A DNA stretch of 32,000 nucleotides from Nostoc punctiforme PCC 73102 (GTDB lineage: Bacteria > Cyanobacteriota > Cyanobacteriia > Cyanobacteriales > Nostocaceae). Position 1 is the first letter of the stretch. Each line of letters begins with the position of its first letter. This document shows positions 10,525 through 32,000 of the stretch, in pieces. Below the pieces are notes generated by a model. That model did not search any database, had not been told where the DNA came from, and saw nothing but the letters and a program-made list of their open reading frames with translations. The position numbers and the translations under genes were made by a program. The stretch lies in the NCBI RefSeq assembly GCF_000020025.1, contig NC_010628.1:5880001-5912000 (forward strand). Direction: 5' to 3'.

Positions 10525-10528
10525 AGAA

Positions 10529-10671
10529 GAATTCAGGAGTCAGAATTCAGGAGTCAGAATGGGCTAAACCTTAGCTATCCGCTAACAGGAGTCAGTATGA
10601 ATTAGAGTCCGGTGGCGTTTTAACTCCATCTCTTCATGGATAGAGTCTTCTGAATTCTCTCTTCTGAGTCC
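10529..10671. repeat. GAATTCAGGAGTCA tandem repeat with inverted partner between convergent genes
   Basis: GAATTCAGGAGTCA occurs twice (10529-10556) plus a partial third unit. A further AGGAGTCAG lies at 10587-10595. Inverted copies TTCTGAATTC (10648-10657) and TCTGAGTCC (10663-10671) follow. The region fills the gap between the stops at 10524 (+) and 10676 (-). Confidence 0.7.
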
Positions 10672-10675
10672 TTTC

Positions 10676-10978
10676 TCATGGTGTTTCTTCAGAATCCGCC
10701 GATGGTTCGTTGTTAAATAACAGCAAGCGTGCAGCAAGGATGGCAAATCCGATCGCAGCGATCGCTTTTAACAAACGTGTAGGTAATAATTCGGCTACTG
10801 CTCCCCCTGCTAATGCACCCAACAGGCTAGTCAACAGCAATGCACCTGCTGCACCAAAAAATACTGCACGCGGAGAGTTAGAACGCCCTGAAAGTGCGAT
10901 CGCTGCTAGCTGACTTTTGTCACCCAATTCTGATAAAAAAACTGTAATAAAGCTCAGTCCTAAGAGATGCCAATCCAT
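10676..10978 (-). CDS. UPF0016 (GDT1/TMEM165/PAM71/Mnx) family half-size cation transporter subunit
   Basis: Signature E-x-G-D-K-[ST] is present as SELGDKSQ, followed by two more hydrophobic helices. ORF track gives 10676..11035. The start is moved to ATG 10978-10976 (MDWHLLGLSF...) because the first 19 codons translate a GGGAATG-type heptamer repeat (PFPIPHSSFP). Confidence 0.8.
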   Translation of the reverse strand: MDWHLLGLSFITVFLSELGDKSQLAAIALSGRSNSPRAVFFGAAGALLLTSLLGALAGGAVAELLPTRLLKAIAAIGFAILAARLLLFNNEPSADSEETP

Positions 10979-11046
10979 ATTATTTAGGGGGAATGAGGAA
11001 TGGGGAATGGGAAATGGGAGTTTCTCCAATGACAAATGACCAATAA

Positions 11047-11478
11047 CTAATGACTAGTAAATACATCCCAAAACAGCATTAGGGAAATTACCAACAACAT
11101 CACACCTGCTGATTTTTCTACAGTTTTTGGGCTGAGTCGGCTAGCCATCCAACTACCTAAAAGTACACCTAATAAGCTGGTGGTTATCAGCGCCGCTGCC
11201 GATCCGAGAAATACCACCCAAGGCGAATGAGATTCTGCACTCATTAATAGGGTGGATAGCTGAGTCTTATCTCCAATTTCTGCGAGAAAAATGGTTACAA
11301 AAGTTGTGCCAAAAACTACTAACACTGATTGCTGCTTTGGAGGACTATCGGCAACTACAGGCTGAACTAGCTGGGCGATCGCAGGAGTCAAGTTAAAATC
11401 ATTGCTGTCTTTCAGTTCTAGCTCGATCTCAGTCTGAGCTATGCCAGAAATCTCCAAAGGTGCAGAGTCAAGTTTCAC
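11047..11478 (-). CDS. UPF0016 (GDT1/TMEM165/PAM71/Mnx) family half-size cation transporter subunit with N-terminal extension
   Basis: 143 aa with a GTG start. Signature AEIGDKTQ after the first helix, three predicted helices in total, and about 50 non-hydrophobic residues at the N-terminus. Its stop lies 68 nt upstream of the paralogous half-gene start. Confidence 0.8.
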   Translation of the reverse strand: MKLDSAPLEISGIAQTEIELELKDSNDFNLTPAIAQLVQPVVADSPPKQQSVLVVFGTTFVTIFLAEIGDKTQLSTLLMSAESHSPWVVFLGSAAALITTSLLGVLLGSWMASRLSPKTVEKSAGVMLLVISLMLFWDVFTSH

Positions 11479-11605
11479 AAGCAGTAGTTTTGGTTGCTAG
11501 GTTATTTTCATATTTCTATCATATTCTCAGATTGTTGTAATAAATTGCAACTACATAAATGGAGATAAAAAAATTATGGGGTGTCTTTGTGTCCTTAGAT
11601 CCTCC

Positions 11606-11956
11606 TTACAGCCCAATAGCTTTATCGAAGCGTAGTATTTCTAAGCTGCGATCGCCATATACTCCTTCTATTTGCTGGCGACAGCAGTCAATAGCAAAAT
11701 CGTTGACTTCTTCAGGTTCAACCCCATACATATCTTGAAAAACTTCTGATTCCACGCGGCAGAAACGAGGACGATCTGAGTAGATGCGACATTCGCGCGT
11801 GGTATGGTCGAAATTAACGCACCATCCGCCTTCGCCTACCATGCTGAGGTAGAGTTCTAGTTCTGGTGGAGAGAGATACTCATCTAAATCTGGACGATCT
11901 GCTGGATCGAGATTACAGCAGGCTCCACATTGTTTTACACATTGCCAAGTTGCCAT
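11606..11956 (-). CDS. YkgJ-family cysteine-cluster (putative Zn/Fe-binding) protein
   Basis: 116 aa. The N-terminal CVKQCGACCNL (C-x2-C-x2-CC) plus downstream CVNF...CRIY..RPRFC cysteines match the UPF0153/YkgJ pattern. Confidence 0.7.
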   Translation of the reverse strand: MATWQCVKQCGACCNLDPADRPDLDEYLSPPELELYLSMVGEGGWCVNFDHTTRECRIYSDRPRFCRVESEVFQDMYGVEPEEVNDFAIDCCRQQIEGVYGDRSLEILRFDKAIGL

Positions 11957-11965
11957 TTTGAATTA

Positions 11966-12017
11966 GGGAGTGGGGAATGGGGAATGGGGAATGGGGAACT
12001 TGTACTGAGCGCAGTCG
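11966..12017. repeat. GGGGAAT heptamer array fused to the core ACTTGTACTGAGCGCAGTCG
   Basis: gggagtGGGGAATGGGGAATGGGGAATGGGGAA (11966-11998) runs directly into ACTTGTACTGAGCGCAGTCG (11998-12017). The same core, with one C/A difference, follows a different heptamer array inside recJ at 13842-13861. Confidence 0.85.
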
Positions 12018-12095
12018 TAAAGCCTGCGGCATAGCTACGCTTAGGGCGCAGCCTCTCGTAGAGAAGTATGGGGAATGGGTAGCAGGAAAGGATTA

Positions 12096-12170
12096 GGGGA
12101 CGAGGGGGACAAGGGGAAATTATTGAATAAGCCTCTTCCTTGTCTCCCCCCTCTTCCTTGTCTCTTCTCC
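12096..12170. repeat. Imperfect inverted repeat of GGGGACAAGG-type purine/pyrimidine blocks
   Basis: ggggacgagggggacaaggggaaat (12096-12120) faces cctcttccttgtctcccccctcttccttgtctcttctcc (12132-12170) across an 11-nt spacer. It lies in the divergent ykgJ / psb30 intergenic region. Confidence 0.55.
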
Positions 12171-12347
12171 ATGCCCAATGCCCCTCTGCCTCTTCTGCTC
12201 AATCCCCCTATTTTACGTTTTTATGTCTTTTCTTATAATTTTGTTAAGTAAATTAAATCCAACAGGCCATAGACAGATATGATCGATTGCGGGTTTTGTA
12301 ATTAAGTTATTGAATTTTTTAAGACAATTGGAAGGAGAAAGGGGAAA

Positions 12348-12491
12348 ATGTTTGACGCTGTATCTGACTTGGTTAACGCTTTTACCAGTATCAATTGGGA
12401 AGTTATTTTCCAATTGCTGTCCGTGGCGCTAATTGTAATTGCTGGCCCAGTAGTAATCTTTTTGTTGGCATTTCGCAACGGCAACCTATAA
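12348..12491 (+). CDS. psb30: Photosystem II reaction centre protein Psb30 (Ycf12)
   Basis: 47 codons plus stop, below the ORF-track cutoff. Encodes [47 protein letters not shown], a single helix with the characteristic IAGP...IFLLA.R.GNL C-terminus of cyanobacterial Ycf12. GGAGAAAGGGG lies just upstream of the ATG. Confidence 0.85.
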
Positions 12492-12497
12492 GATTTC

Positions 12498-12608
12498 TGA
12501 GTGCTGATTAAGAGTTAGGGGTGAGGAGCGATGCCCTGAGCCTGCCAAAGGGTTAGGAGTGAGTAATTAAATTTTATTCTCAACTCATAACTCATAAATC
12601 AGCACTCA
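12498..12608. repeat. Long inverted repeat between convergent psb30 and recJ (possible shared terminator)
   Basis: TGAGTGCTGATT (12498-12509) is the exact reverse complement of AATCAGCACTCA (12597-12608). The interior holds GAGTTAGG / ACTCATAACTCATA heptamer-type repeats. Confidence 0.6.
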
Positions 12609-12647
12609 CAATGTTACAGTCACAAGTGATAAGTTAATTGATAACTC

Positions 12648-14795
12648 TTAACTTTTAACTGATAACGCTTGAAGTGCAGCTTGAATAATACTGTCATACT
12701 GTGGCTGAGAAATATCAACTTCTTTAGCGTTTTGACGATTAGTACCAAGTAAACCGATTATATGTCCTGGCTGCATGACTAACACCTTGCCTTCAGGGTT
12801 TTTAATTCTTAATTCTGCTTCAATGCCGTTTTTATAGAAACCACAAGTATAGTTTCGCTGATTGTACTCAAAGTTGGTACTTGACGAAATAGGTGGCGAA
12901 GCAAAAAATTTTTGAATCTGAATTGGCAATCTAACACCGATTAACTCTAGCTCGATGGTGGTGTTGCCGTTAAAATAATTTTCTCGCAGTTTGTAAGCTA
13001 CATCCACTCGCGGCGGTAAGCGGAAGTAGTCGCCCCAACGCCAAGCGATCGCTTTAATTCTGTAATCCTGATTATCAATAGTTTGGGCAATTGTCAGTTT
13101 GATGTGACCCTTACCAACGATTTTTTGCTCAACCACTTGAACATTAGCTGTCCAAAAAACTGGATCGGGGTTGTCCATACCGCAAGGATGTAGAGCATTA
13201 AGCTGTTGGTAAAGCTGCTGATTGATCTGATCGAGGTTGACTTCGGCATCAATTTTGAGCAGAGGCTTGAGATGCTGGGGTTCAAGACACTGGTTAGCAA
13301 ACTCAATCAAACGCGATCGCACCATCTGTAAATTTTCTGCTGGTAGAGAAAATCCCCCTGCGGCTTTGTGTCCGCCATATTTTCCTAGTAAATCGTGACA
13401 ATATTCCAAAGCTTCAAACACATTAAACTCTGGAATTGAGCGTGCAGAACCGCGTATATGTTCCCCATCCTCATAAGTACCGATAAATACAGGAACACCG
13501 TAGCGTTCTACCAAGCGGGAGGCGACAATCCCAATAACGCCGTGATGCCAATTGGGTTGAACAACAATTAATACACGATCTTGTTGTAGAGATGTAACAA
13601 ATTCTGATTCTACATAAGCGATCGCTTCTTGTTCAATTTGCTGACACATTTCCTGGCGAGAAGCGTTGATTTGTTCGCACTGCATTGCTCTTTCCAGCGC
13701 CACCCCCATATCATCTGTAGTCAGCAATTCAATCACAGTCTGGGGATTACCAATTCGACCGATAGCATTAATTCGTGGTCCCAAGCGAAACCCGATATCT
13801 TCAGGCTTGAGCGATTTTGGATTTTGGATTTTGGATTTTGGACTTGTACTGAGCGAAGTCGAAGTATTGGCAATTTCCTCCCCTGCTCCCCTGCTCCCCT
13901 GCTCCCCTGCTCCCCCTGCTCTCTCCTCTCCCCTCGCTTGCACGCCACCTACCTGAATCAACGCCTGTATCCCAGCTAAGTTGGATTTGGGTAAATGCTG
14001 TAAACCACGTTTCACCCAACGGCGATTTACGCCAGTTAAGGGAGCTAAATCTGCGATCGTTCCTAGTGTAAACAGTGCTAGCATCGGCTGGATCAATCCC
14101 TTCGTCTCGCCTAGCTGTTGTGCTAAAGACACTGCCAAAATATAGGCAACACCAACACCAGCAACACCCCTATAGGGTGAGGATTCTGCTATTAGCTTAG
14201 GGTTGAGGATAGCATTAGCTGGCGGTAATTTTTGGGGGATATCGTGGTGGTCGGTGATAATAACTGCAAGACCAAGTTCTCTAGCTCTAGCAACTGGTTC
14301 AAACGCAGAGATGCCATTATCTACAGTCAGAATTAATCCCACACCTTCGCTGTGAAATTCTTCAACTATGCGTTTATTGATACCGTAGCCTTCGTGCATC
14401 CGGCTGGGGATAGCATAATCTACCTGTGCGCCTAAAGTGCGGAGACTACGTAAAAGTAGAGCCGTGCTGGTCATTCCATCAGCATCGTAGTCACCACAAA
14501 TAGCAATTTTTGTTTGAGAAGCGATCGCATTTTGCAACAACTCCAAACTAATCGCCAAATCTGGGAAATCTTCTAATGGCGAAGGTAAGACTAATGACTC
14601 TGGCTCTAAAAATGCTTGTGCTTGTTCTGGTGTTTCCATACCCCGATTAATCAACAACTGGCTGATAATGGGCGAAACATTGATCAAAACCGCCAGTTTT
14701 TGGGCAAATTCTGGTTTTTGTGGATAAATTTGCCAGCGCTGATTAGGTAAGCGCCTGGTAGGTTTTGAGAATTCAGATACAGGTCGGTCTAGCAC
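12648..14795 (-). CDS. recJ: Single-stranded-DNA-specific exonuclease RecJ
   Basis: 715 aa with a GTG start. Contains the DHH-family motifs (IAICGDYDADGMTS, LILTVDNG, ITDHHD), GFRLGPRINAIGRIG, the DHHA1 motif GGHKAAGGFSL, and a C-terminal OB-like extension. Confidence 0.92.
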   Translation of the reverse strand: MLDRPVSEFSKPTRRLPNQRWQIYPQKPEFAQKLAVLINVSPIISQLLINRGMETPEQAQAFLEPESLVLPSPLEDFPDLAISLELLQNAIASQTKIAICGDYDADGMTSTALLLRSLRTLGAQVDYAIPSRMHEGYGINKRIVEEFHSEGVGLILTVDNGISAFEPVARARELGLAVIITDHHDIPQKLPPANAILNPKLIAESSPYRGVAGVGVAYILAVSLAQQLGETKGLIQPMLALFTLGTIADLAPLTGVNRRWVKRGLQHLPKSNLAGIQALIQVGGVQARGEERAGGAGEQGSRGAGEEIANTSTSLSTSPKSKIQNPKSLKPEDIGFRLGPRINAIGRIGNPQTVIELLTTDDMGVALERAMQCEQINASRQEMCQQIEQEAIAYVESEFVTSLQQDRVLIVVQPNWHHGVIGIVASRLVERYGVPVFIGTYEDGEHIRGSARSIPEFNVFEALEYCHDLLGKYGGHKAAGGFSLPAENLQMVRSRLIEFANQCLEPQHLKPLLKIDAEVNLDQINQQLYQQLNALHPCGMDNPDPVFWTANVQVVEQKIVGKGHIKLTIAQTIDNQDYRIKAIAWRWGDYFRLPPRVDVAYKLRENYFNGNTTIELELIGVRLPIQIQKFFASPPISSSTNFEYNQRNYTCGFYKNGIEAELRIKNPEGKVLVMQPGHIIGLLGTNRQNAKEVDISQPQYDSIIQAALQALSVKS
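13813..13919. repeat. Composite micro-repeat cassette in frame within recJ (heptamer array, core, octamer array)
   Basis: 4 x GATTTTG/TTTTGGA (13813-13842), then the core CTTGTACTGAGCGAAGTCGAAGTA (13843-13866), then 4 x TCCCCTGC and one TCCCCCTGC (13879-13919). Translated on the minus strand this gives ...AGGAGEQGSRGAGEEIANTSTSLSTSPKSKIQNPKS... Confidence 0.9.
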
Positions 14796-26966: not shown

Positions 26967-28442
26967 ATGTCTTCTAAAAAGACAGACACTCTGTTGAATT
27001 GGTTGATAACTATAACAGTTATATTTGGCTGCTCATTGATTGTAATTTTCTTTGCTTTATCCAGTATTAAAGAATTGTCAATTCAGGAAAAAATTCAGTA
27101 CAGAAACCAAGCTTTAACAACTGCTGCAATAGTTTTTCTGGCATCGGCGGCAATGTTTAATACCTATTACGCAGCAAAGCGGGTCCAAGCGATGCAGAAA
27201 AATGCGATCGCAGCTGAGAAAAACCTCGAAATTGGCCTTCAAAATGCCAAACTCAATCAAGATAGATTGATTTCAGAACGCTTTATGGGGGCAATTTCCC
27301 AGCTTGGTCATGATAAAGTTGAAACCCGAACAGGTGCAATTTATGCCTTAGAAAGAGTTGCTCAGGATTTTCCTAAAGAACACTGGACAATCATGGAAAT
27401 CCTTACTGCCTTTGTGCGAGAAAATGCAGCTATCCAGCAGGTGAAGGTTGAGCAACAAAAGCCGGAATATGCACCAGATGCTTATTCAGGTAGGCGTAGA
27501 GGTGGGTCGCGTCCGACACAGCAGTTAGAGCAAAATCTCCATGAAGAATTTCCAACAATCCGCACTGATATTCAAGCAGCCCTAACTGTTATCGGCAGGC
27601 GTAATTTACTCGAAGACCCAAAAGATCAGAAACTTGATTTACGTCATATCGACATCAGACGAGCAGACCTGCTAGGAGTTAACCTACAACAAGCAGATTT
27701 ACGTGGTTCTGACTTGAGCGGGGCTGACTTGCGTGGAGCCGACTTGAGTGAGGCTGACTTAAACGGCGCTAAACTCATTAGGTCTATTCTCTATGAAACC
27801 AAATTACTACAAGCCAGCCTCTGTGGAGCTAATCTATGTTGGGCTAATCTTAATCGTGCTAATCTCTCAGGGGCTAACCTGCGTTCAGCCAACCTTTCTG
27901 GAGCAAGTCTGCGTATAGCGAATCTCCAAGGAGCAAACCTCTATAAAGCCAACTTGCAACAAGCAACTTTGAAAGTCGCCAATCTCTCTGGCGCAAAGCT
28001 GTTTTTAGCCAACTTGCAAGGTGCAAAACTGGGTAAAGCCAACCTAAATCTAACGGGTTTGATAGGTGCTAATCTTTCAGGGGCTAACCTGAATGGAGCC
28101 AACCTTTCTGGGGCTAACTTGAATGCAGCCAAACTCCACCAAACAGAAGTCTATTTTGCCAATCTCTCAGAAGCCAGTTTAACGGAAGCTGACCTGCATC
28201 AGGCAAACCTGATTGGAGCCAACCTGCATAGAGCGACCTTTTATCAAGCTAACCTGACTCAGGCAAACCTGATGGGAGCTAACTTCTTAGAAGCTGACCT
28301 CAGTGATGTCAAACTGGAAGGGACAATTTTAACAGGGGCTAAAAACTTAGAGTTGCATCAGATTAGAAAGGCACTTGGCGATCGCACCACTCGCCTACCT
28401 GATTATATAGAAGCACCAACAGATTGGCGGCAATCAGGTTGA
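26967..28442 (+). CDS. Membrane-anchored pentapeptide-repeat protein
   Basis: 491 aa. Two N-terminal hydrophobic helices (LLNWLITITVIFGCSLIVIFFAL, ALTTAAIVFLASAAMF) and a helical module ERFMGAISQLGHDKVETRTGAIYALERVAQDFPKEHWTIMEILTAFVREN. About 250 residues of pentapeptide repeats follow. Confidence 0.9.
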   Translation: MSSKKTDTLLNWLITITVIFGCSLIVIFFALSSIKELSIQEKIQYRNQALTTAAIVFLASAAMFNTYYAAKRVQAMQKNAIAAEKNLEIGLQNAKLNQDRLISERFMGAISQLGHDKVETRTGAIYALERVAQDFPKEHWTIMEILTAFVRENAAIQQVKVEQQKPEYAPDAYSGRRRGGSRPTQQLEQNLHEEFPTIRTDIQAALTVIGRRNLLEDPKDQKLDLRHIDIRRADLLGVNLQQADLRGSDLSGADLRGADLSEADLNGAKLIRSILYETKLLQASLCGANLCWANLNRANLSGANLRSANLSGASLRIANLQGANLYKANLQQATLKVANLSGAKLFLANLQGAKLGKANLNLTGLIGANLSGANLNGANLSGANLNAAKLHQTEVYFANLSEASLTEADLHQANLIGANLHRATFYQANLTQANLMGANFLEADLSDVKLEGTILTGAKNLELHQIRKALGDRTTRLPDYIEAPTDWRQSG

Positions 28443-28495: not shown

Positions 28496-28885
28496 TTATT
28501 TTTCCAGACTCCAACCCAGTGCTAAGGCTACTTCAGCAGCTAATTCTAGCGGATTAAATGGTTTAGCGATCGCACCAATCATTCCCATCTGATTATAACG
28601 ACGGCGATCGGAAGCCTGGATTTTGGCAGTTAACAAAATTACGGGAATTTTTTTAGTTACCGGATTAGCTTGTAACTTTTCAAAGGTGGCAATCCCATCC
28701 ATATCTGGCATCATTACATCTAGTAAAATCGCATCTGGTTGGTAAGTCTCAGCTTTCATTATCCCCTCTTCACCTGAACTCGCTGTTTCAACTTTCCAGC
28801 CTGCAACCGTTTCCAAGCAAATCTTGGCAACTTCTTGAATATACTGCTCGTTATCAACCACTAGAATTTGCTTTGTTGCCATCAA
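28496..28885 (-). CDS. Single-domain (CheY-like) response regulator
   Basis: 129 aa. ILVVDNEQ...DAILLDVMMPDMDG...VILLTAK...AIAKPF gives the receiver Asp, Thr and Lys positions. There is no output domain. Confidence 0.9.
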   Translation of the reverse strand: MMATKQILVVDNEQYIQEVAKICLETVAGWKVETASSGEEGIMKAETYQPDAILLDVMMPDMDGIATFEKLQANPVTKKIPVILLTAKIQASDRRRYNQMGMIGAIAKPFNPLELAAEVALALGWSLEK

Positions 28886-28912
28886 TTGCTATCCTCTTAT
28901 TTGGTTGTGATT

Positions 28913-29018
28913 CAATACTTCTCGCTTTGTGCATTTTTAACTCGGAATCAGGTTTGGGGTAAAGGTTTTTTCTGTCCCTTTCCCCTTTTCCCTTTTCCCC
29001 AAAATCCGAGAAGTATTG
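28913..29018. repeat. Nested inverted repeats flanking a purine-rich tract between the hybrid kinase and the CheY-like gene
   Basis: The outer repeat is a perfect 12-bp pair, CAATACTTCTCG (28913-28924) / CGAGAAGTATTG (29007-29018). The inner pair is TTTGGGG (28953-28959) / CCCCAAA (28997-29003). The interior on the minus strand reads GGGGAAAAGGGAAAAGGGGAAAGGGACAG. Confidence 0.7.
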
Positions 29019-29048
29019 GGTTTTGATTAATGCACTGAAGTAACTCCA

Positions 29049-32000
29049 TCAATCGTTGTTCAAATTCCTGGGGGTAATACGCCCTTTAGTCAAAAATTCT
29101 GCATCTTGACTTGCGTGGCTATTTATGATTTGGTCATGACGACTATAAATTACAGGAATATTGGAAGAGTTTTGTAAATCAGTATGTGGGAAAGTCCCAA
29201 ACAACGGCAGAGTGACGTAAAAAGTACTACCTTCGCCCAATATACTCTCAGCCCAGATGCGTCCGCCGTGCTGTTGCATAATGCTTTTACAAATTGCCAA
29301 ACCTAAACCAGTACCATCATGGTTACGTGAATCTGAAGAGTCAACTTGTTGAAAGCGTTCAAATATACTCTCAAGTTTGTCAGTTGGGATACCGCGTCCG
29401 GTGTCTTTGATGGTTAACAAAACTTCATCGCCTTCTTGTTGTGCCCCCAACCAAACCGTAGATCCAGCAGACGAAAATTTAATGGCGTTACTCAGTAGGT
29501 TAGTTAAGGTTTGGACAATGCGATCGCAATCTGCCAATACTTGACCGGATAGAGCAGAAATGGATAGTGTCACTCCGGCTTTGTCAGCCAAAGGCTGGAT
29601 GACATTTACTGCTTGAGTAATCAAATCAACGATATTGCAGATTTCTGCTTCCATCTTCGCCTTACCCGACTCAATCCGCTCAATGTCTAGAATGTCGTTG
29701 ATTAAACGTACTAGGCGTTCGGTGCTATCAGCAGCAATTTGCAACAGACGTTTTCCCTGCTCTGAGTCTGTCGGCAGCAAACCACTGGCTAGCATTCCGA
29801 GAGAGCCGTAAATCGAAGTTAAAGGTGTGCGGAGTTCATGACTAACAACAGAGACAAACTCGTCCTTCATCCGTTCGATTTGCTTGCGCTCTGTGACATC
29901 TCGTAAGATGACCGTATAAAATATCTCATCACCCATATCTATTTTAGAGATAGAAGCTTCTGCTGGAAACTCACTTCCATCCTTTCGGCGACCATAAATT
30001 TCACGCCGTTCTCCCATGCGCCGGGCAACATTGGGAGATTGCCCAAAGTCCGCTACGTGTTGACGATGTGCTTGGAAAAAGCGCTGCGGTAAGAGTAAAT
30101 CAAGACCTTGGCCAATCACTTCCTGGGCACAGTAACCAAAAATCTTCTCTGCTCCTTGATTAAACAAGGTGATATTGTGGAACCCGTTGATAGAAATAAT
30201 TGCATCATCAGCAATATCTAAAATTCGGGCAAATCGGGCTTGAGAAAACCGTAATTCTTCCTGCGTTTGCTGACGTTCATCAAGTTGTGACTGCAACTGC
30301 TGATTCACACTTATTAACTCGGCAGTTCGCTCTGCTACCCTCAACTCTAGTTCATTGATAGCTCGGTGAGAGAAAGATGGGGGTGAATTTACTTCCTCCG
30401 CTCCCCCTGCCCCTCTGCTCCCCTGCTCCCCTGCCCCTCTGCTCCCCTGCGTCACACGCTGCCGTAATTTCATTCGTTCTAAGCGATTGACGATCCGAGT
30501 TACAAGTTCTGGCCCGACAATGGGCTTGCTTACAAAGTCATCAGCACCAATGCTAAATACCTGATTTACCATCTCGGCATCGCTATGAACAGTGAGGAAT
30601 AAGATGGGTAACTCACTCCAGTGTGAATCGTTGCGTACTAATCGACAAAGTTCTATCCCATTGATATAAGGCAATTCCACATCTAAAATCAGCATATCTG
30701 GGGCAACTGCTTCTAAAGTTTCCCAGAACTGAAGCGGATTTTCAAGAGCGATCGCTCTGAGTCCCCAAGGACTAAGTAAGGTTTGCAACAATGCCTGAAT
30801 TTGCGGATCGTCATCCACAACCAATATTTTAGTTTCTGCATCGGGATGATTTTGCAGTGGTTGCGTCACTGTTTCTACTTGGGAGATTGACGATCCAGAT
30901 ATTGCCCCTGCATCGTTTCCCTCTATTTCTCGACGCAATAAATTTACCCAAATTTGGAGGTTGCCAATCTCAGATTTACTCAAGGTTTGATCATAACTCA
31001 GCAGCAGTTCGATATTGCGGGCCCATTTTGAGCCAAGAGGCAAGCCAAAAGTGCCTAAAGACCCTGCCAAAGTATGGGCTTCTTTGGCTGCAAGGGAGAG
31101 TAATTCGGGATTTAAACTATTATTTTGATTTAAAGTTGCGATCGCTTGCTCTAGCACCCTCACCTGCTGCTCCACCCGCCCTTGAAATCGTTGCCAAATT
31201 TCTGCAACTGCCATTAGTGCTTGCTGCTGTGATTTGAGATTGGGTATCGGCGATTTTACCCTATCTACTTCCCCTCTGCTCCCCTGCTCCTCTGCCCCTC
31301 TGCTCCCCTGCTCCCCGGCTCCTGCGCCCCTGTGCTTATCCTCTTCCAGAGGTTTCAGACGATAGCCAATACCATAAACTGTTTCAACCAAATCACCGGG
31401 CGCTCCTACAGCTTTAAGTTTTTGTCGTAACCCTTTGATATGAGTGCGAACAGCTTCTTCTTGGGGAGTATCTTCATAAGACCAAAGATGCTCTAAAATC
31501 ATGCCACAGCTAAACACCCGACGACTATTTCGCAAGAATAGTTCTAACAGAGCAAACTCTTTTGGGGTAAGTGGGAGCAGGTTTCTAGCATAAACCGCTT
31601 CACAGCTACTAGGATCTAGGCGCAACTTCCCAGACTCCAGCACCGGTGGCGAGGTTACGGCTGGGCGACGCAACAGCGCCCTTATACGAGCAACTAACTC
31701 TTCTATATCAAAGGGTTTAACTAAATAATCGTCTGCACCTGCATCTAAGCCGATTGCTTTCTCATGACTACTATTGCGCCCTGTCATCAACAAGATCGGC
31801 ATTTGCAGATTATTAGACCGGATTTTACGACAAAGACTAATGCCATCCAGCTTGGGCAAAACTACATCCAGGAGAATTAAATCATAATCGTAAGCTTGAA
31901 TACAATCCCAGGCAGCATCGCCATCAGTGGCAACTTCAACCGCATAGTTTTGGTTAGTCAAAAGGTTAGTCAGTGTATATGCATTTAACCCATCATCTTC
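29049..32000 (-). CDS. Multidomain two-component protein: REC - OmpR-type winged helix - Hpt - REC - PAS - HisKA - HATPase (5' end beyond the window)
   Basis: The ORF track starts it at TTG 31961, but the frame stays open to position 32000 (EDDGLNAYTLTNL upstream), and a receiver domain needs about 10 more N-terminal residues. The motifs are listed in the finding covering 29049-32000. Confidence 0.9.
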   Translation of the reverse strand, partial: EDDGLNAYTLTNLLTNQNYAVEVATDGDAAWDCIQAYDYDLILLDVVLPKLDGISLCRKIRSNNLQMPILLMTGRNSSHEKAIGLDAGADDYLVKPFDIEELVARIRALLRRPAVTSPPVLESGKLRLDPSSCEAVYARNLLPLTPKEFALLELFLRNSRRVFSCGMILEHLWSYEDTPQEEAVRTHIKGLRQKLKAVGAPGDLVETVYGIGYRLKPLEEDKHRGAGAGEQGSRGAEEQGSRGEVDRVKSPIPNLKSQQQALMAVAEIWQRFQGRVEQQVRVLEQAIATLNQNNSLNPELLSLAAKEAHTLAGSLGTFGLPLGSKWARNIELLLSYDQTLSKSEIGNLQIWVNLLRREIEGNDAGAISGSSISQVETVTQPLQNHPDAETKILVVDDDPQIQALLQTLLSPWGLRAIALENPLQFWETLEAVAPDMLILDVELPYINGIELCRLVRNDSHWSELPILFLTVHSDAEMVNQVFSIGADDFVSKPIVGPELVTRIVNRLERMKLRQRVTQGSRGAGEQGSRGAGGAEEVNSPPSFSHRAINELELRVAERTAELISVNQQLQSQLDERQQTQEELRFSQARFARILDIADDAIISINGFHNITLFNQGAEKIFGYCAQEVIGQGLDLLLPQRFFQAHRQHVADFGQSPNVARRMGERREIYGRRKDGSEFPAEASISKIDMGDEIFYTVILRDVTERKQIERMKDEFVSVVSHELRTPLTSIYGSLGMLASGLLPTDSEQGKRLLQIAADSTERLVRLINDILDIERIESGKAKMEAEICNIVDLITQAVNVIQPLADKAGVTLSISALSGQVLADCDRIVQTLTNLLSNAIKFSSAGSTVWLGAQQEGDEVLLTIKDTGRGIPTDKLESIFERFQQVDSSDSRNHDGTGLGLAICKSIMQQHGGRIWAESILGEGSTFYVTLPLFGTFPHTDLQNSSNIPVIYSRHDQIINSHASQDAEFLTKGRITPRNLNND
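30401..30450. repeat. Octamer array (TCCCCTGC / CCCTCTGC units) in frame at the REC2-PAS junction
   Basis: ctccccctgc ccctctgc tcccctgc tcccctgc ccctctgc tcccctgc, translated on the minus strand as QGSRGAGEQGSRGAGGAEE. Confidence 0.9.
31270..31335. repeat. Octamer array (TCCCCTGC family, degenerate) in frame at the wHTH-Hpt junction
   Basis: tcccctctgc tcccctgc tcctctgc ccctctgc tcccctgc tccccggc tcctgcgc ccctgtgc, translated on the minus strand as HRGAGAGEQGSRGAEEQGSRGE. Confidence 0.9.

What the first reader, a model, noticed from the sequence alone, without database searches (positions are those of the whole stretch)
29049..32000. A complete His-Asp-His-Asp phosphorelay plus its DNA-binding output fused into one polypeptide
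Read N- to C-terminally, the ORF (at least 983 codons in the window) contains these modules:
- REC1: DLILLDVVLPKLDG, LLMTGR, YLVKPF.
- OmpR-type winged helix: LTPKEFALLELFLRN, THIKGLRQKL, GIGYRLKP.
- An Hpt-like helical segment with KEAHTLAGSLGTFGL (His codon at 31076-31074).
- REC2: KILVVDDDPQ, MLILDVELPYING, FVSKPI.
- Coiled coil and PAS.
- HisKA: VSHELRTPLTS.
- HATPase: LLSNAIKFS, DTGRGI, GTGLGLAICK.

All four phosphotransfer stations and the transcription-factor output therefore lie in cis, in the reverse order of phosphate flow. Hybrid kinases carrying REC and Hpt are well known. Having the terminal OmpR-type regulator on the same chain is unusual. A stand-alone CheY-like receiver (28496-28885) follows 163 nt downstream and could act as a phosphate sink or branch point.
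Basis: partly seen in the sequence, partly recalled or inferred. Interest (0 to 1): 0.65.

Follow-up and report, generated by a model that had tools for sequence, protein, structure and literature searches.

The report
Fused RcaC-type regulator and kinase gene
This intact cyanobacterial gene joins a known "complex response regulator" (the RcaC type used in light-colour acclimation) to its neighbouring sensor kinase. It is a fused variant of a known signalling cassette, not a new kind of system, though its sensor domain resembles oxygen-sensing haem domains.

Summary
The ORF 29049..>32000 (-) is open through both repeat arrays and lacks only 6 codons at the window edge. It encodes REC–OmpR wHTH–Hpt–REC–coiled coil/PAS–HisKA–HATPase_c. 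Every domain scores above Pfam's cut-off and all phospho-site residues are conserved.

It is not a one-off. More than 100 Nostocales genomes carry it, including Anabaena PCC 7120 (alr2428), under names such as [quoted passage not shown].

The N-terminal REC–wHTH–Hpt–REC block is the RcaC-type complex response regulator. In other cyanobacteria the same three parts are separate adjacent genes: complex regulator, sensor kinase and small CheY-like receiver. That is the RcaE/RcaF/RcaC and RfpA/RfpC/RfpB pattern.

All three window parts match a phycobilisome-linked Rca-type locus:
- regulator block: 43–50% identity
- kinase core: 56% identity
- small receiver: 52% identity

The gene is therefore a Nostocales fusion of regulator and kinase. 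The downstream receiver (28496-28885) is most likely the first aspartate station of the relay, not a sink.

REC2 has been lost in one Nostoc lineage. Two further C-terminal receivers present in orthologues were deleted in this lineage.

The PAS domain is FixL/DosP-like with the proximal His conserved, which suggests O2 or redox input.

Verdict: a fused variant of a known kind, of moderate interest.

The parts
29049..32000 (-). Main ORF. It gives 983 codons plus the stop in the window. The true protein is 989 aa; 6 N-terminal codons (MKILIV) lie beyond the window edge. It is a fusion of an RcaC-type complex response regulator with a PAS histidine kinase.
   Evidence: P0001. Domain map.
31680..32000 (-). 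REC1, an OmpR-family terminal receiver. Acidic pair E7/D8/D9. Phospho-Asp D51 (codon 31868-31866), T79, K101, and Tyr at the switch position (DDYLVKPF).
   Evidence: Response_reg. (coordinates). (residues at least 95% conserved in 136 sequences). (D51 aligns to D51 of an RcaC-annotated protein).
31356..31577 (-). OmpR/PhoB-type winged-helix DNA-binding domain (Trans_reg_C).
   Evidence: 78 bits, cut-off 26.2. (full-length matches to OmpR-family equivalog models, all below their cut-offs).
31273..31336 (-). Octamer (CAGGGGAG-type) tandem array 1, read in frame as GAGAGEQGSRGAEEQGSRG. It forms the wHTH/Hpt linker and is hypervariable among Nostoc orthologues.
30882..31232 (-). Hpt four-helix bundle. 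Phospho-His H315 (codon 31076-31074) sits in EAHTLAGSLGTFG, with Ala where most Hpt domains have Lys.
   Evidence: 33 bits, cut-off 24.6..
30468..30839 (-). REC2, the C-terminal receiver of the RcaC-type block. D402/D403, phospho-Asp D446 (codon 30683-30681), T476, K498.
   Evidence: (50% identity to the C-terminal receiver of an RcaC-annotated protein). Absent in P0073 and P0090.
30404..30450 (-). Octamer tandem array 2, read as GSRGAGEQGSRGAGG. It sits at the regulator/kinase fusion joint (the REC2/coiled-coil linker).
   Evidence: The unfused relative L007 has a stop codon and a heptamer-repeat spacer at the corresponding place.
29889..30340 (-). Coiled-coil (INELELRVAERTAEL...) followed by a FixL/DosP-like PAS domain (Pfam hit 29889-30236). 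Candidate proximal haem ligand His651 (codon 30068-30066). Arg672 aligns to FixL Arg220.
   Evidence: PAS_9, 48.7 bits. (best PDB matches are FixL at E 3.7e-17 and DosP at 3.6e-16). (His and Arg at least 95% conserved in 136 sequences)..
29664..29870 (-). HisKA (DHp) domain. Autophosphorylation His727 (codon 29840-29838) in SHELRTPL.
   Evidence: (56% identity to the kinase core of an RcaE-like kinase).
29202..29531 (-). HATPase_c catalytic domain. N box LLSNAIKFS, G1 DTGRGI, G2 GTGLGL.
29070..29099 (-). Relic of a deleted C-terminal receiver. EFLTKGRITP matches the last strand/helix of REC4 (TEFLTKGRVTT) in long orthologues that carry two extra receivers after the kinase.
28886..29048 (-). 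163-nt spacer between the two genes. It contains a heptamer array (28975-28999). No promoter-like or terminator-like site was found, which is compatible with co-transcription.
28496..28885 (-). Single-domain RcaF-like receiver of 129 aa. Phospho-Asp D56 (codon 28720-28718), T86, K108. The acidic pair is D11-N12(-E13), not DD. There is no aromatic switch residue (AIAKPF). The C-terminal LGW motif is conserved.
   Evidence: Conserved immediately downstream.

Best explanation
The locus is the Nostocales form of a cyanobacterial three-part phosphorelay cassette. [quoted passage not shown] The characterised examples of this cassette are RcaC/RcaE/RcaF (chromatic acclimation) and RfpB/RfpA/RfpC (far-red acclimation).

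Here the regulator gene and the adjacent kinase gene have fused into one 989-aa ORF. The small receiver gene stays separate, directly downstream.

Inferred mechanism:
1. The FixL-like PAS domain senses a signal, possibly O2 or redox through haem, and sets autophosphorylation of His727.
2. The phosphoryl group passes to an Asp receiver. This is most likely D56 of the small diffusible receiver, as proposed for RcaF. REC2 D446 may act as an alternative or modulating acceptor.
3. It then passes to His315 of the Hpt bundle.
4. Finally it reaches Asp51 of REC1, which activates the OmpR-type winged helix to bind DNA.

Shown here: the domain content, residue conservation, homology of all three parts to an Rca-type locus, and the split versus fused gene organisation.

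Inferred: the order of phosphotransfer, the signal sensed and the target genes.

The REC-wHTH-Hpt-REC block exists independently:
- A search of 1.84 billion representative proteins found 327 clusters at 50% identity matching the wHTH+Hpt segment at E<=1e-30.
- Among the 150 best-scoring clusters, most are stand-alone REC-wHTH-Hpt-REC(-REC) proteins, some with GGDEF or GAF tails. Only a minority carry a kinase.

Unfused three-gene clusters (regulator block / sensor-HK / CheY-like):
- Microseira wollei (CheY-like 75% identical to the window's), Microcoleus, Limnospira, Snowella and Richelia.
- Mastigocoleus and an Acaryochloridaceae MAG have the order HK / CheY-like / regulator.
- The kinases in these clusters carry PAS, GAF or phytochrome sensors.

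Fused forms:
- Nostoc, Scytonema, Anabaena/Trichormus and Fischerella.

Direct homology to a phycobilisome-linked Rca-type locus (Hyella patelloides L087):
- That locus runs PBS linkers, bilin reductase, PAS-GAF-PAS-HK, a 126-aa REC, and REC-wHTH-Hpt-REC annotated 'Protein RcaC'.
- Regulator block: 43% identity over 407 aa (E 3e-84). REC2: 50% identity (E 2e-44).
- Small receiver: 52% identity over its full length (E 8e-49).
- Kinase core: 56% identity over 247 aa (E 2e-93).

The small receiver is always kept:
- It lies directly downstream in A. variabilis, Nostoc C110, N. sphaeroides and Fischerella despite different flanking genes.
- It is 77-97% identical across these genomes.
- It lacks the aromatic switch residue. 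A 2023 study found this position variable in intermediary (shuttle) receivers (PMC9981736).

REC2 and the C-terminal receivers are dispensable in some lineages.

Literature:
- RcaE phosphorylates the single-domain regulator RcaF and the complex regulator RcaC (PMC4752607; PMC13492139).
- RfpB lost its C-terminal receiver in heterocystous strains (PMC4390838).

No promoter-like or terminator-like site lies between the two genes.
Against: - No phosphotransfer data exist for this family. The route through the small receiver rests on analogy and on the pattern of gene retention.
- In this orthologue group (fused Nostocales forms plus Microseira) the small receiver has Asn in place of the second acidic Mg-binding residue (invariant DNE). 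More distant cassette members have DD(E). This could slow or prevent phosphorylation, and the protein could instead be a modulator.
- REC2 is strongly conserved with all catalytic residues in about 134 sequences. It lies only about 40 residues upstream of the kinase coiled coil, so in-cis transfer to REC2 is physically plausible.
- About half of the orthologues have canonical hybrid-kinase receivers (REC3, REC4) after the HATPase domain. The ancestral first Asp station may have been one of those, and the route in the reduced window form may have been rewired.
- I could not read in the library that RcaC has an Hpt domain. One review describes RcaC as having three receiver domains plus a winged helix. 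The Hpt is shown here only for the RcaC-annotated homologue.
- The RcaC annotation of P0461 is an automated name.
Confidence: 0.6

Rival explanations
1. The relay is self-contained and runs in cis (or within a homodimer): His727 -> REC2 Asp446 -> Hpt His315 -> REC1 Asp51 -> wHTH. The downstream CheY-like protein is only a phosphate sink or branch.
For: - All four stations are on the chain with conserved catalytic residues.
- REC2 is adjacent to the kinase module.
- REC2 and REC3 share a similar alpha-1 start (DDDPxI..LQ.LL), so REC2 might dock on the same partner as a canonical hybrid-kinase receiver.
- The small receiver carries an atypical DNE acidic pair.
Against: - REC2 belongs to the stand-alone RcaC-type regulator even where the kinase is a separate gene. 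It did not arise as a kinase-attached receiver.
- REC2 is deleted in N. sphaeroides-type orthologues. These keep the Hpt His, the kinase and the small receiver gene.
- The small receiver is kept in every cassette examined and is the most conserved part.
- RfpB also lost its C-terminal receiver in heterocystous strains.
Confidence: 0.2
2. A two-step system with accessories. The fused kinase phosphorylates REC1 directly. Hpt, REC2 and the small receiver are inputs from other kinases, phosphate sinks, or regulators of kinase activity. For example, REC2 could be an input receiver that gates the PAS-kinase.
For: - Fusion places REC1 at high local concentration relative to the DHp domain.
- N-terminal receivers that regulate a downstream kinase are common in cyanobacterial kinases (general knowledge).
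- In Anabaena CdgK one of two receivers is dispensable (PMC9927289), so not every receiver in such proteins carries flux.
Against: - The Hpt His is at least 95% conserved over 136 sequences, and over the wider cassette family.
- The kinase core, small receiver and regulator block stay together as a set across cyanobacteria.
- The genetics cited for the Rca system place RcaF between RcaE and RcaC.
Confidence: 0.12
3. The long ORF is an artefact or pseudogene. Assembly error across the repeat arrays would have merged ordinary separate genes, or the gene would be decaying.
For: - One metagenome contig (L085) shows the region broken into four ORFs.
- One short-read contig ends inside array 2 (L086), so its protein P0123 appears truncated there.
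- Several lineages show domain deletions.
Against: - Independent complete genomes and many draft genomes give the same continuous ORF: 120 clusters, with several contigs of 7-8 Mb.
- A second assembly gives an equal-length 989-aa protein (P0122).
- Linker arrays differ in length between strains but are always in frame.
- Catalytic residues are conserved.
- L085 has breaks outside the arrays too, typical of indel-rich assembly. L086 is simply a contig end.
Confidence: 0.02

Closest known systems
RcaE / RcaF / RcaC phosphorelay of Fremyella diplosiphon (type III chromatic acclimation)
   Same: - The parts list is the same: a kinase, a small single-domain receiver, and a complex OmpR-class regulator with N- and C-terminal receivers.
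- All three window parts are homologous to a phycobilisome-linked Rca-type locus: 43-50% (regulator block), 52% (small receiver) and 56% (kinase core) identity.
- The RcaC-annotated homologue has REC-wHTH-Hpt-REC.
- From memory, not verified here: the phospho-sites reported for RcaC (D51, H316) match P0001 D51 and H315.
   Different: - The kinase is fused to the C-terminus of the regulator and is not a separate gene.
- The sensor is a FixL-like PAS, not a bilin-binding GAF (cyanobacteriochrome).
- The locus is not next to phycobilisome genes.
- The small receiver has DNE, not DD(E).
RfpA / RfpC / RfpB (far-red light photoacclimation)
   Same: - It has a knotless-phytochrome kinase, a CheY-like receiver and a DNA-binding regulator flanked by receivers.
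- The C-terminal receiver of RfpB was lost in heterocystous strains (PMC4390838). This parallels the loss of REC2 and of REC3/REC4 seen here.
   Different: - The genes are separate and the input is a photosensor.
- No direct sequence comparison with Rfp proteins was made here.
Unorthodox/hybrid histidine kinases (ArcB, BarA, TorS; CdgK of Anabaena)
   Same: - They use a His-Asp-His-Asp chemistry with several stations on one chain.
- Long orthologues of the window protein carry HisKA-HATPase-REC-REC, like CdgK. In CdgK only one receiver carries flux (PMC9927289).
   Different: - Those proteins run sensor-HK-REC-Hpt and hand over to a separate regulator.
- Here Hpt and the terminal regulator lie N-terminal to the kinase, and the kinase-attached receivers are deleted.
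- NCBIfam scores for ArcB, BarA and TorS are far below their cut-offs.
Bacteroides hybrid two-component systems (HTCS)
   Same: Kinase, receiver and DNA-binding output are on one polypeptide (general knowledge).
   Different: - HTCS are membrane proteins with periplasmic sugar sensors and an AraC-type output.
- They have no Hpt and use a two-step transfer.
- They are unrelated in order and origin.
FixL and DosP haem-PAS oxygen sensors
   Same: - The window PAS domain's best PDB matches are FixL (E 3.7e-17) and DosP (E 3.6e-16).
- The next non-haem PAS scores about 4e-3.
- The proximal His and the residue aligned to FixL Arg220 are conserved.
   Different: - Residues aligned to the FixL FG-loop hydrophobics (Ile215, Ile216, Ile218; roles from memory) are Arg, Met and Glu here.
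- Haem binding is untested.
- FixL signals to a separate FixJ.

Membership tests
Rca/Rfp-type cassette (complex OmpR-class regulator + kinase + small receiver) | The regulator has the order REC - OmpR winged helix - Hpt - REC. | tested here: met
   Pfam order. The same order appears in the precomputed domains of orthologues and in the RcaC-annotated P0461.
Rca/Rfp-type cassette (complex OmpR-class regulator + kinase + small receiver) | Sequence homology of the regulator, kinase core and small receiver to a locus that is Rca-type by context (next to phycobilisome linker and bilin reductase genes). | tested here: met
   E-values 3e-84 and 2e-44 (regulator block and REC2), 8e-49 (small receiver), 2e-93 (kinase core). 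Locus context.
Rca/Rfp-type cassette (complex OmpR-class regulator + kinase + small receiver) | A single-domain receiver gene is adjacent to the cassette. | tested here: met
   Window 28496-28885. Conserved.
Rca/Rfp-type cassette (complex OmpR-class regulator + kinase + small receiver) | Kinase and regulator are separate polypeptides. | tested here: not met
   One continuous ORF. They are separate in L007, L008, L012, L015, L017 and L087.
Rca/Rfp-type cassette (complex OmpR-class regulator + kinase + small receiver) | The kinase carries a bilin-binding GAF or phytochrome photosensor. | tested here: not met
   The window protein has only one PAS domain. GAF occurs in some long orthologues and in unfused relatives.
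Rca/Rfp-type cassette (complex OmpR-class regulator + kinase + small receiver) | The phosphoryl flow is kinase His -> small receiver Asp -> Hpt His -> N-terminal receiver Asp. | not testable with these tools
   Only residue conservation and the literature model are available.
Unorthodox hybrid kinase (ArcB/BarA/TorS type) | The domain order is sensor - HisKA - HATPase - REC - Hpt, with the output regulator separate. | tested here: not met
   The order is REC-wHTH-Hpt-REC-PAS-HisKA-HATPase. NCBIfam TorS scores 253 against a cut-off of 676, BarA 246 against 890, and ArcB 226 against 838.
OmpR/PhoB response regulator family (N-terminal module) | A receiver with the catalytic quintet followed by Trans_reg_C. 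| tested here: met
   No NCBIfam equivalog reaches its cut-off, so it is not a named orthologue such as RpaB, PhoB or MtrA.
Haem-PAS oxygen sensors (FixL/DosP) | PAS homology with a conserved proximal His ligand. | tested here: met
   (alignment: QAH651RQHV against RSRH200DSYI). (at least 95% conserved in 136 sequences).
Haem-PAS oxygen sensors (FixL/DosP) | The haem pocket FG-loop residues are conserved and the domain actually binds haem. | tested here: inconclusive
   The Arg aligned to FixL R220 is conserved, but neighbouring FG-loop positions differ. Residue roles are recalled from memory. Haem binding needs spectroscopy.

The most novel reading that the evidence does not exclude
The family could be a FixL-type haem-PAS oxygen or redox sensor wired into an RcaC-type four-step relay in heterocyst-forming, N2-fixing cyanobacteria.

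Because kinase and terminal regulator are one protein, the only diffusible step would be the small DNE receiver. That receiver would then act as the gate or integration point of the pathway.

In addition, the slippage-prone 8-nt arrays sit exactly at the two domain junctions. They could occasionally break the fusion: a change of one or two units is a frameshift, and only a change of three units keeps the frame. A break would yield a plain OmpR-type or RcaC-type regulator.
Probability: 0.2. Interest if true: 0.65.

Novelty: new variant of a known kind. Interest (0 to 1): 0.4.

Why it matters
It gives an uncharacterised but widespread Nostocales protein family (including alr2428 of Anabaena PCC 7120) a concrete, testable model. 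The family is a fused version of the Rca/Rfp-type phosphorelay.

The natural split, fused and domain-deleted variants are useful material. They include forms with or without REC2, and with zero, one or two C-terminal receivers. With them one can ask which receiver actually carries phosphate in complex relays, and what is gained by tethering a kinase to its terminal regulator.

If the FixL-like PAS domain binds haem, the family would be a candidate O2/redox-to-transcription pathway in heterocystous cyanobacteria. A 2026 review of cyanobacterial redox signalling did not mention haem-binding or oxygen-sensing PAS domains, or alr2428, in the terms I searched.

Tried and rejected
- I tried to retrieve RcaC from a sequence recalled from memory. 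The recalled sequence was not RcaC. It matched ~390-aa Pseudanabaena REC-wHTH(-Hpt) proteins. I discarded it and nothing in this report rests on it.
- Several literature searches gave nothing useful: the annotation phrase, and the RcaC Hpt. The key Rca papers (PMC179199, PMC2580696) are not held. RcaC residue numbers and its Hpt domain are therefore marked as memory.
- The look-up of encoding contigs found no record for the window protein itself. Upstream context was inferred from the 94%-identical Nostoc sp. C110 locus.
It sampled orthologues poorly but still delivered the decisive unfused clusters.
- I considered that the small receiver was split off from the deleted C-terminal REC3/REC4. 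I rejected this: it is present next to long orthologues that still have REC3 and REC4, and in unfused cassettes.
- I considered natural frameshift variants at the arrays (P0123, P0124). These are explained by a contig end and an indel-rich assembly.
- I did not attempt specificity-residue or covariation prediction of the kinase's cognate receiver. The family is too conserved for it to be informative.

Full report
**1. Observation**

The minus-strand frame from 32000 down to the stop at 29049 is open. The complete protein is in the public collection as a 989-aa sequence, P0001. It adds only MKILIV in front of the window's first residues and comes from an 8,234,322-bp contig.

- two Response_reg domains
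- Trans_reg_C (78 bits)
- Hpt (33.0 bits against a cut-off of 24.6)
- PAS/PAS_9
- HisKA (72 bits)
- HATPase_c (109 bits)

The weakest call, Hpt, was checked three further ways:
- A profile of 19 diverse family Hpt segments matches CheA P1 domains in the PDB (E 8e-6). The family's invariant His aligns with the CheA phospho-His.
- An AlphaFold model of the segment is a confident four-helix bundle (pLDDT 85.7).
- The model's best structural neighbours are CheA P1 (1tqg, TM 0.66/0.77) and other HPt domains. Foldseek E-values are weak, as expected for helical bundles.

| Station | Residue | Codon |
|---|---|---|
| REC1 | D51 | 31868-31866 |
| Hpt | H315 | 31076-31074 |
| REC2 | D446 | 30683-30681 |
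| HisKA | H727 | 29840-29838 |

These residues, and the rest of the catalytic sets, are at least 95% conserved across about 136 homologues.

The two repeat arrays are octamer (CAGGGGAG-type) arrays at 31273-31336 and 30404-30450. They are translated in frame as Gly/Ser/Arg/Glu/Gln-rich linkers.

**2. How common it is**

The best 120 database clusters all carry the same Pfam domain set. They come from Nostoc, Desmonostoc, Calothrix, Cylindrospermum, Anabaena/Trichormus, Fischerella, Chlorogloeopsis and Hapalosiphon. Source names include [quoted passage not shown] and "two-component hybrid sensor and regulator".

The Anabaena PCC 7120 member (BAB74127.1) is most probably alr2428. I inferred that locus tag from accession numbering. 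A 2025 paper describes alr2428 as a hybrid sensor and regulator with an OmpR-type (ColR-like) part, in an alr2428-alr2429 unit. I found no functional study.

A 2015 census already lists 982 proteins in 618 species with HK+RR+HPt+RR on one chain (PMC4558063).

**3. Modular variation inside the family**

I mapped the domains of a 1629-aa A. variabilis orthologue onto all hits. The core is REC1-wHTH-Hpt-REC2-...-coiled coil/PAS-HK.

Among the 120 best clusters:
- 51 carry two further receivers (REC3, REC4) after the HATPase domain
- 13 carry one (REC4)
- 54 carry none or only a short relic
- 2 (Nostoc sphaeroides type, P0073 and P0090) have lost REC2 but keep everything else

The window protein's tail...AEFLTKGRITP..., matches the very end of REC4 (TEFLTKGRVTT). 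The C-terminal receivers were therefore deleted in this lineage. Long orthologues also carry extra PAS-GAF-PAS sensors.

**4. The downstream receiver**

A 126-129-aa single-domain receiver lies directly downstream in A. variabilis, Nostoc sp. C110, N. sphaeroides and Fischerella thermalis. The flanking genes differ between these genomes.

It is 77-97% identical across them. It carries the phospho-Asp, Thr and Lys, and a C-terminal LGW motif.

No promoter-like or terminator-like site lies in the 163-nt spacer.

It lacks an aromatic residue at the beta-5 switch position. A 2023 study found this position variable in intermediary (shuttle) receivers (PMC9981736).

One oddity: its acidic pair is D-N(-E), and this is invariant in the orthologue group. 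More distant cassette members have DD(E/D).

**5. What the N-terminal block is**

I searched 1.84 billion representative proteins with the wHTH-linker-Hpt segment. The search gave 327 clusters (at 50% identity) at E<=1e-30.

Among the 150 best-scoring clusters, most are REC-wHTH-Hpt-REC(-REC) proteins of 500-850 aa without a kinase. Some have GGDEF or GAF tails. REC-wHTH-Hpt-REC is therefore an independent, widely used unit.

**6. The decisive comparison**

I scanned one genome per species with the small receiver and mapped domains on the flanks.

In non-Nostocales cyanobacteria the three parts are separate adjacent genes:
- Microseira wollei L007: REC-wHTH-Hpt-REC-REC-GGDEF, then PAS-PAS-HK, then a receiver 75% identical to the window's.
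- Microcoleus: regulator, phytochrome kinase, receiver.
- Limnospira, Snowella, Richelia and others: the same pattern.
- Mastigocoleus and an Acaryochloridaceae MAG: the order PAS-GAF-PAS-HK, receiver, regulator.

In L007 the regulator gene ends in a real TAA stop. A roughly 90-nt spacer made of heptamer tandem repeats precedes the kinase ATG.

Fused forms were seen in Nostoc, Scytonema, Anabaena/Trichormus and Fischerella. The simplest reading is a gene fusion in Nostocales. The joint is the REC2/coiled-coil linker, which is where octamer array 2 lies in the window.

**7. Link to the known system**

One relative found from the Mastigocoleus regulator is annotated "Protein RcaC" (Hyella patelloides, P0461). 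Its locus (L087) runs in this order:
- phycobilisome linker genes
- a bilin reductase
- PAS-GAF-PAS-HK (685 aa)
- a 126-aa receiver
- REC-wHTH-Hpt-REC

This is the arrangement expected for a chromatic-acclimation rcaE-rcaF-rcaC locus.

| Window part | Identity | E-value |
|---|---|---|
| Regulator block (aa 1-404) | 43% | 3e-84 |
| REC2 | 50% | 2e-44 |
| Small receiver (full length) | 52% | 8e-49 |
| Kinase core (247 aa) | 56% | 2e-93 |

D51 and the Hpt His are aligned in the first comparison.

What the literature says:
- The parallel far-red system RfpA/RfpC/RfpB has the same parts list.
- RfpB lost its C-terminal receiver in heterocystous strains (PMC4390838).

The four-step order (RcaE His, RcaF Asp, RcaC His, RcaC Asp) and the RcaC residue numbers D51/H316 are from my memory of Kehoe & Grossman 1997 and Li & Kehoe 2005. 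I could not read those papers here.

**8. Mechanism**

Shown:
- the parts, their conservation and their homology to the Rca-type cassette
- the fused versus split organisation
- the dispensability of REC2 and REC3/REC4 in some lineages
- the universal retention of the small receiver

Inferred route: PAS-controlled autophosphorylation of His727, then transfer to Asp56 of the small receiver, then to His315 of Hpt, then to Asp51 of REC1, which activates the OmpR-type domain. REC2 would be an alternative or modulating acceptor.

I give the cassette/fusion identity about 0.9. I give the route through the small receiver about 0.5-0.6. The main doubts are the DNE substitution and the strong conservation of REC2.

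Rivals:
- direct kinase-to-REC1 transfer with the other domains as accessories (0.12)
- an assembly artefact or pseudogene (0.02)

Two truncated database entries looked like possible evidence for the artefact reading. One is a contig that ends inside array 2. The other is an indel-rich contig with breaks elsewhere too.

**9. Input signal**

The single PAS domain's best PDB matches are all haem-PAS oxygen sensors: FixL (E 3.7e-17) and DosP (E 3.6e-16). The next non-haem PAS scores about 4e-3.

His651 (codon 30068-30066) aligns with the FixL proximal His. Arg672 aligns with FixL Arg220. Both are at least 95% conserved in the family.

Neighbouring FG-loop positions differ from FixL, so haem binding is a hypothesis. 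I give it about 0.4. A 2026 review of cyanobacterial redox signalling had no occurrence of "heme-binding", "oxygen sens..." or alr2428 in my term search.

**10. Novelty and score**

This is a fused variant of a known kind of system (the Rca/Rfp-type phosphorelay). It is long annotated but uncharacterised.

The "complete relay in cis, unusual" interpretation is only partly right. The most interesting residues of the finding are the natural fusion/fission/deletion series and the FixL-like sensor. Interest 0.4.

Noticed in passing
window 31273-31336 and 30404-30450; orthologue linkers in P0001-P0059: Both interdomain linkers of the big gene are built from 8-nt tandem arrays. Among Nostoc strains they vary strongly in length and are read in different frames (GSRGAEEQ, GVGSREQ, GGRGAGGQ and others), yet the gene always stays in frame. 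Anabaena PCC 7108 has a short repeat-free linker 2. A change of one or two units would be a frameshift.
   Followed up: partly
window 13813-13934, inside ORF 12648-14795 (-): The same octamer array (13878-13934) plus a heptamer array (GATTTTG, 13813-13842) sits inside a RecJ-like ORF (DHH, DHHA1, RecJ_OB). It lies between the DHH and DHHA1 domains. Short tandem arrays embedded in interdomain linkers are therefore not peculiar to the kinase gene.
   Followed up: partly
window 28853-28849 (Asn12-Glu13 of the small receiver): The small receiver has D-N-E where receivers normally have two acidic Mg-binding residues. This is invariant in the fused Nostocales group and in Microseira. More distant cassette members have DD(E/D). 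The effect on phosphorylation is unknown.
   Followed up: partly
window 29889-30236, His651 codon 30068-30066: The PAS domain is most similar to the FixL and DosP haem-PAS oxygen sensors, with the proximal His conserved across the family.
   Followed up: partly
L007 4371-4465 (Microseira wollei): In the closest unfused relative, the spacer between the regulator gene and the kinase gene consists largely of heptamer tandem repeats (ATTTTAG and CAATTAG units). Octamer array 2 occupies the corresponding place in the fused gene.
   Followed up: no
L016, L019, L022 (Acidobacteriaceae MAGs): Acidobacterial loci carry HK-REC-REC, a close relative of the small receiver (55-58% identity) and a stand-alone Hpt gene side by side. 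This looks like a related relay without the OmpR module.
   Followed up: no
window 26967-28442 (+): A 491-aa pentapeptide-repeat protein lies convergent to the small receiver gene. The same neighbour is present in Nostoc sp. C110 (L002) but not in Anabaena or Fischerella.
   Followed up: no
L085 2301-5293 and L086 1499-3097: Two public assemblies of near-identical strains show the gene truncated or broken. L086 is a short-read contig that ends inside array 2. L085 has the gene cut into four ORFs, with breaks outside the arrays too. Both are probably assembly artefacts, which shows how such arrays degrade gene calls.
   Followed up: yes
window 10528-13842: There are many heptamer tandem arrays (AGAATTC, GGGAATG, AATGACT, GATTTTG and others) typical of heterocystous cyanobacteria. 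I did not examine them further.
   Followed up: no
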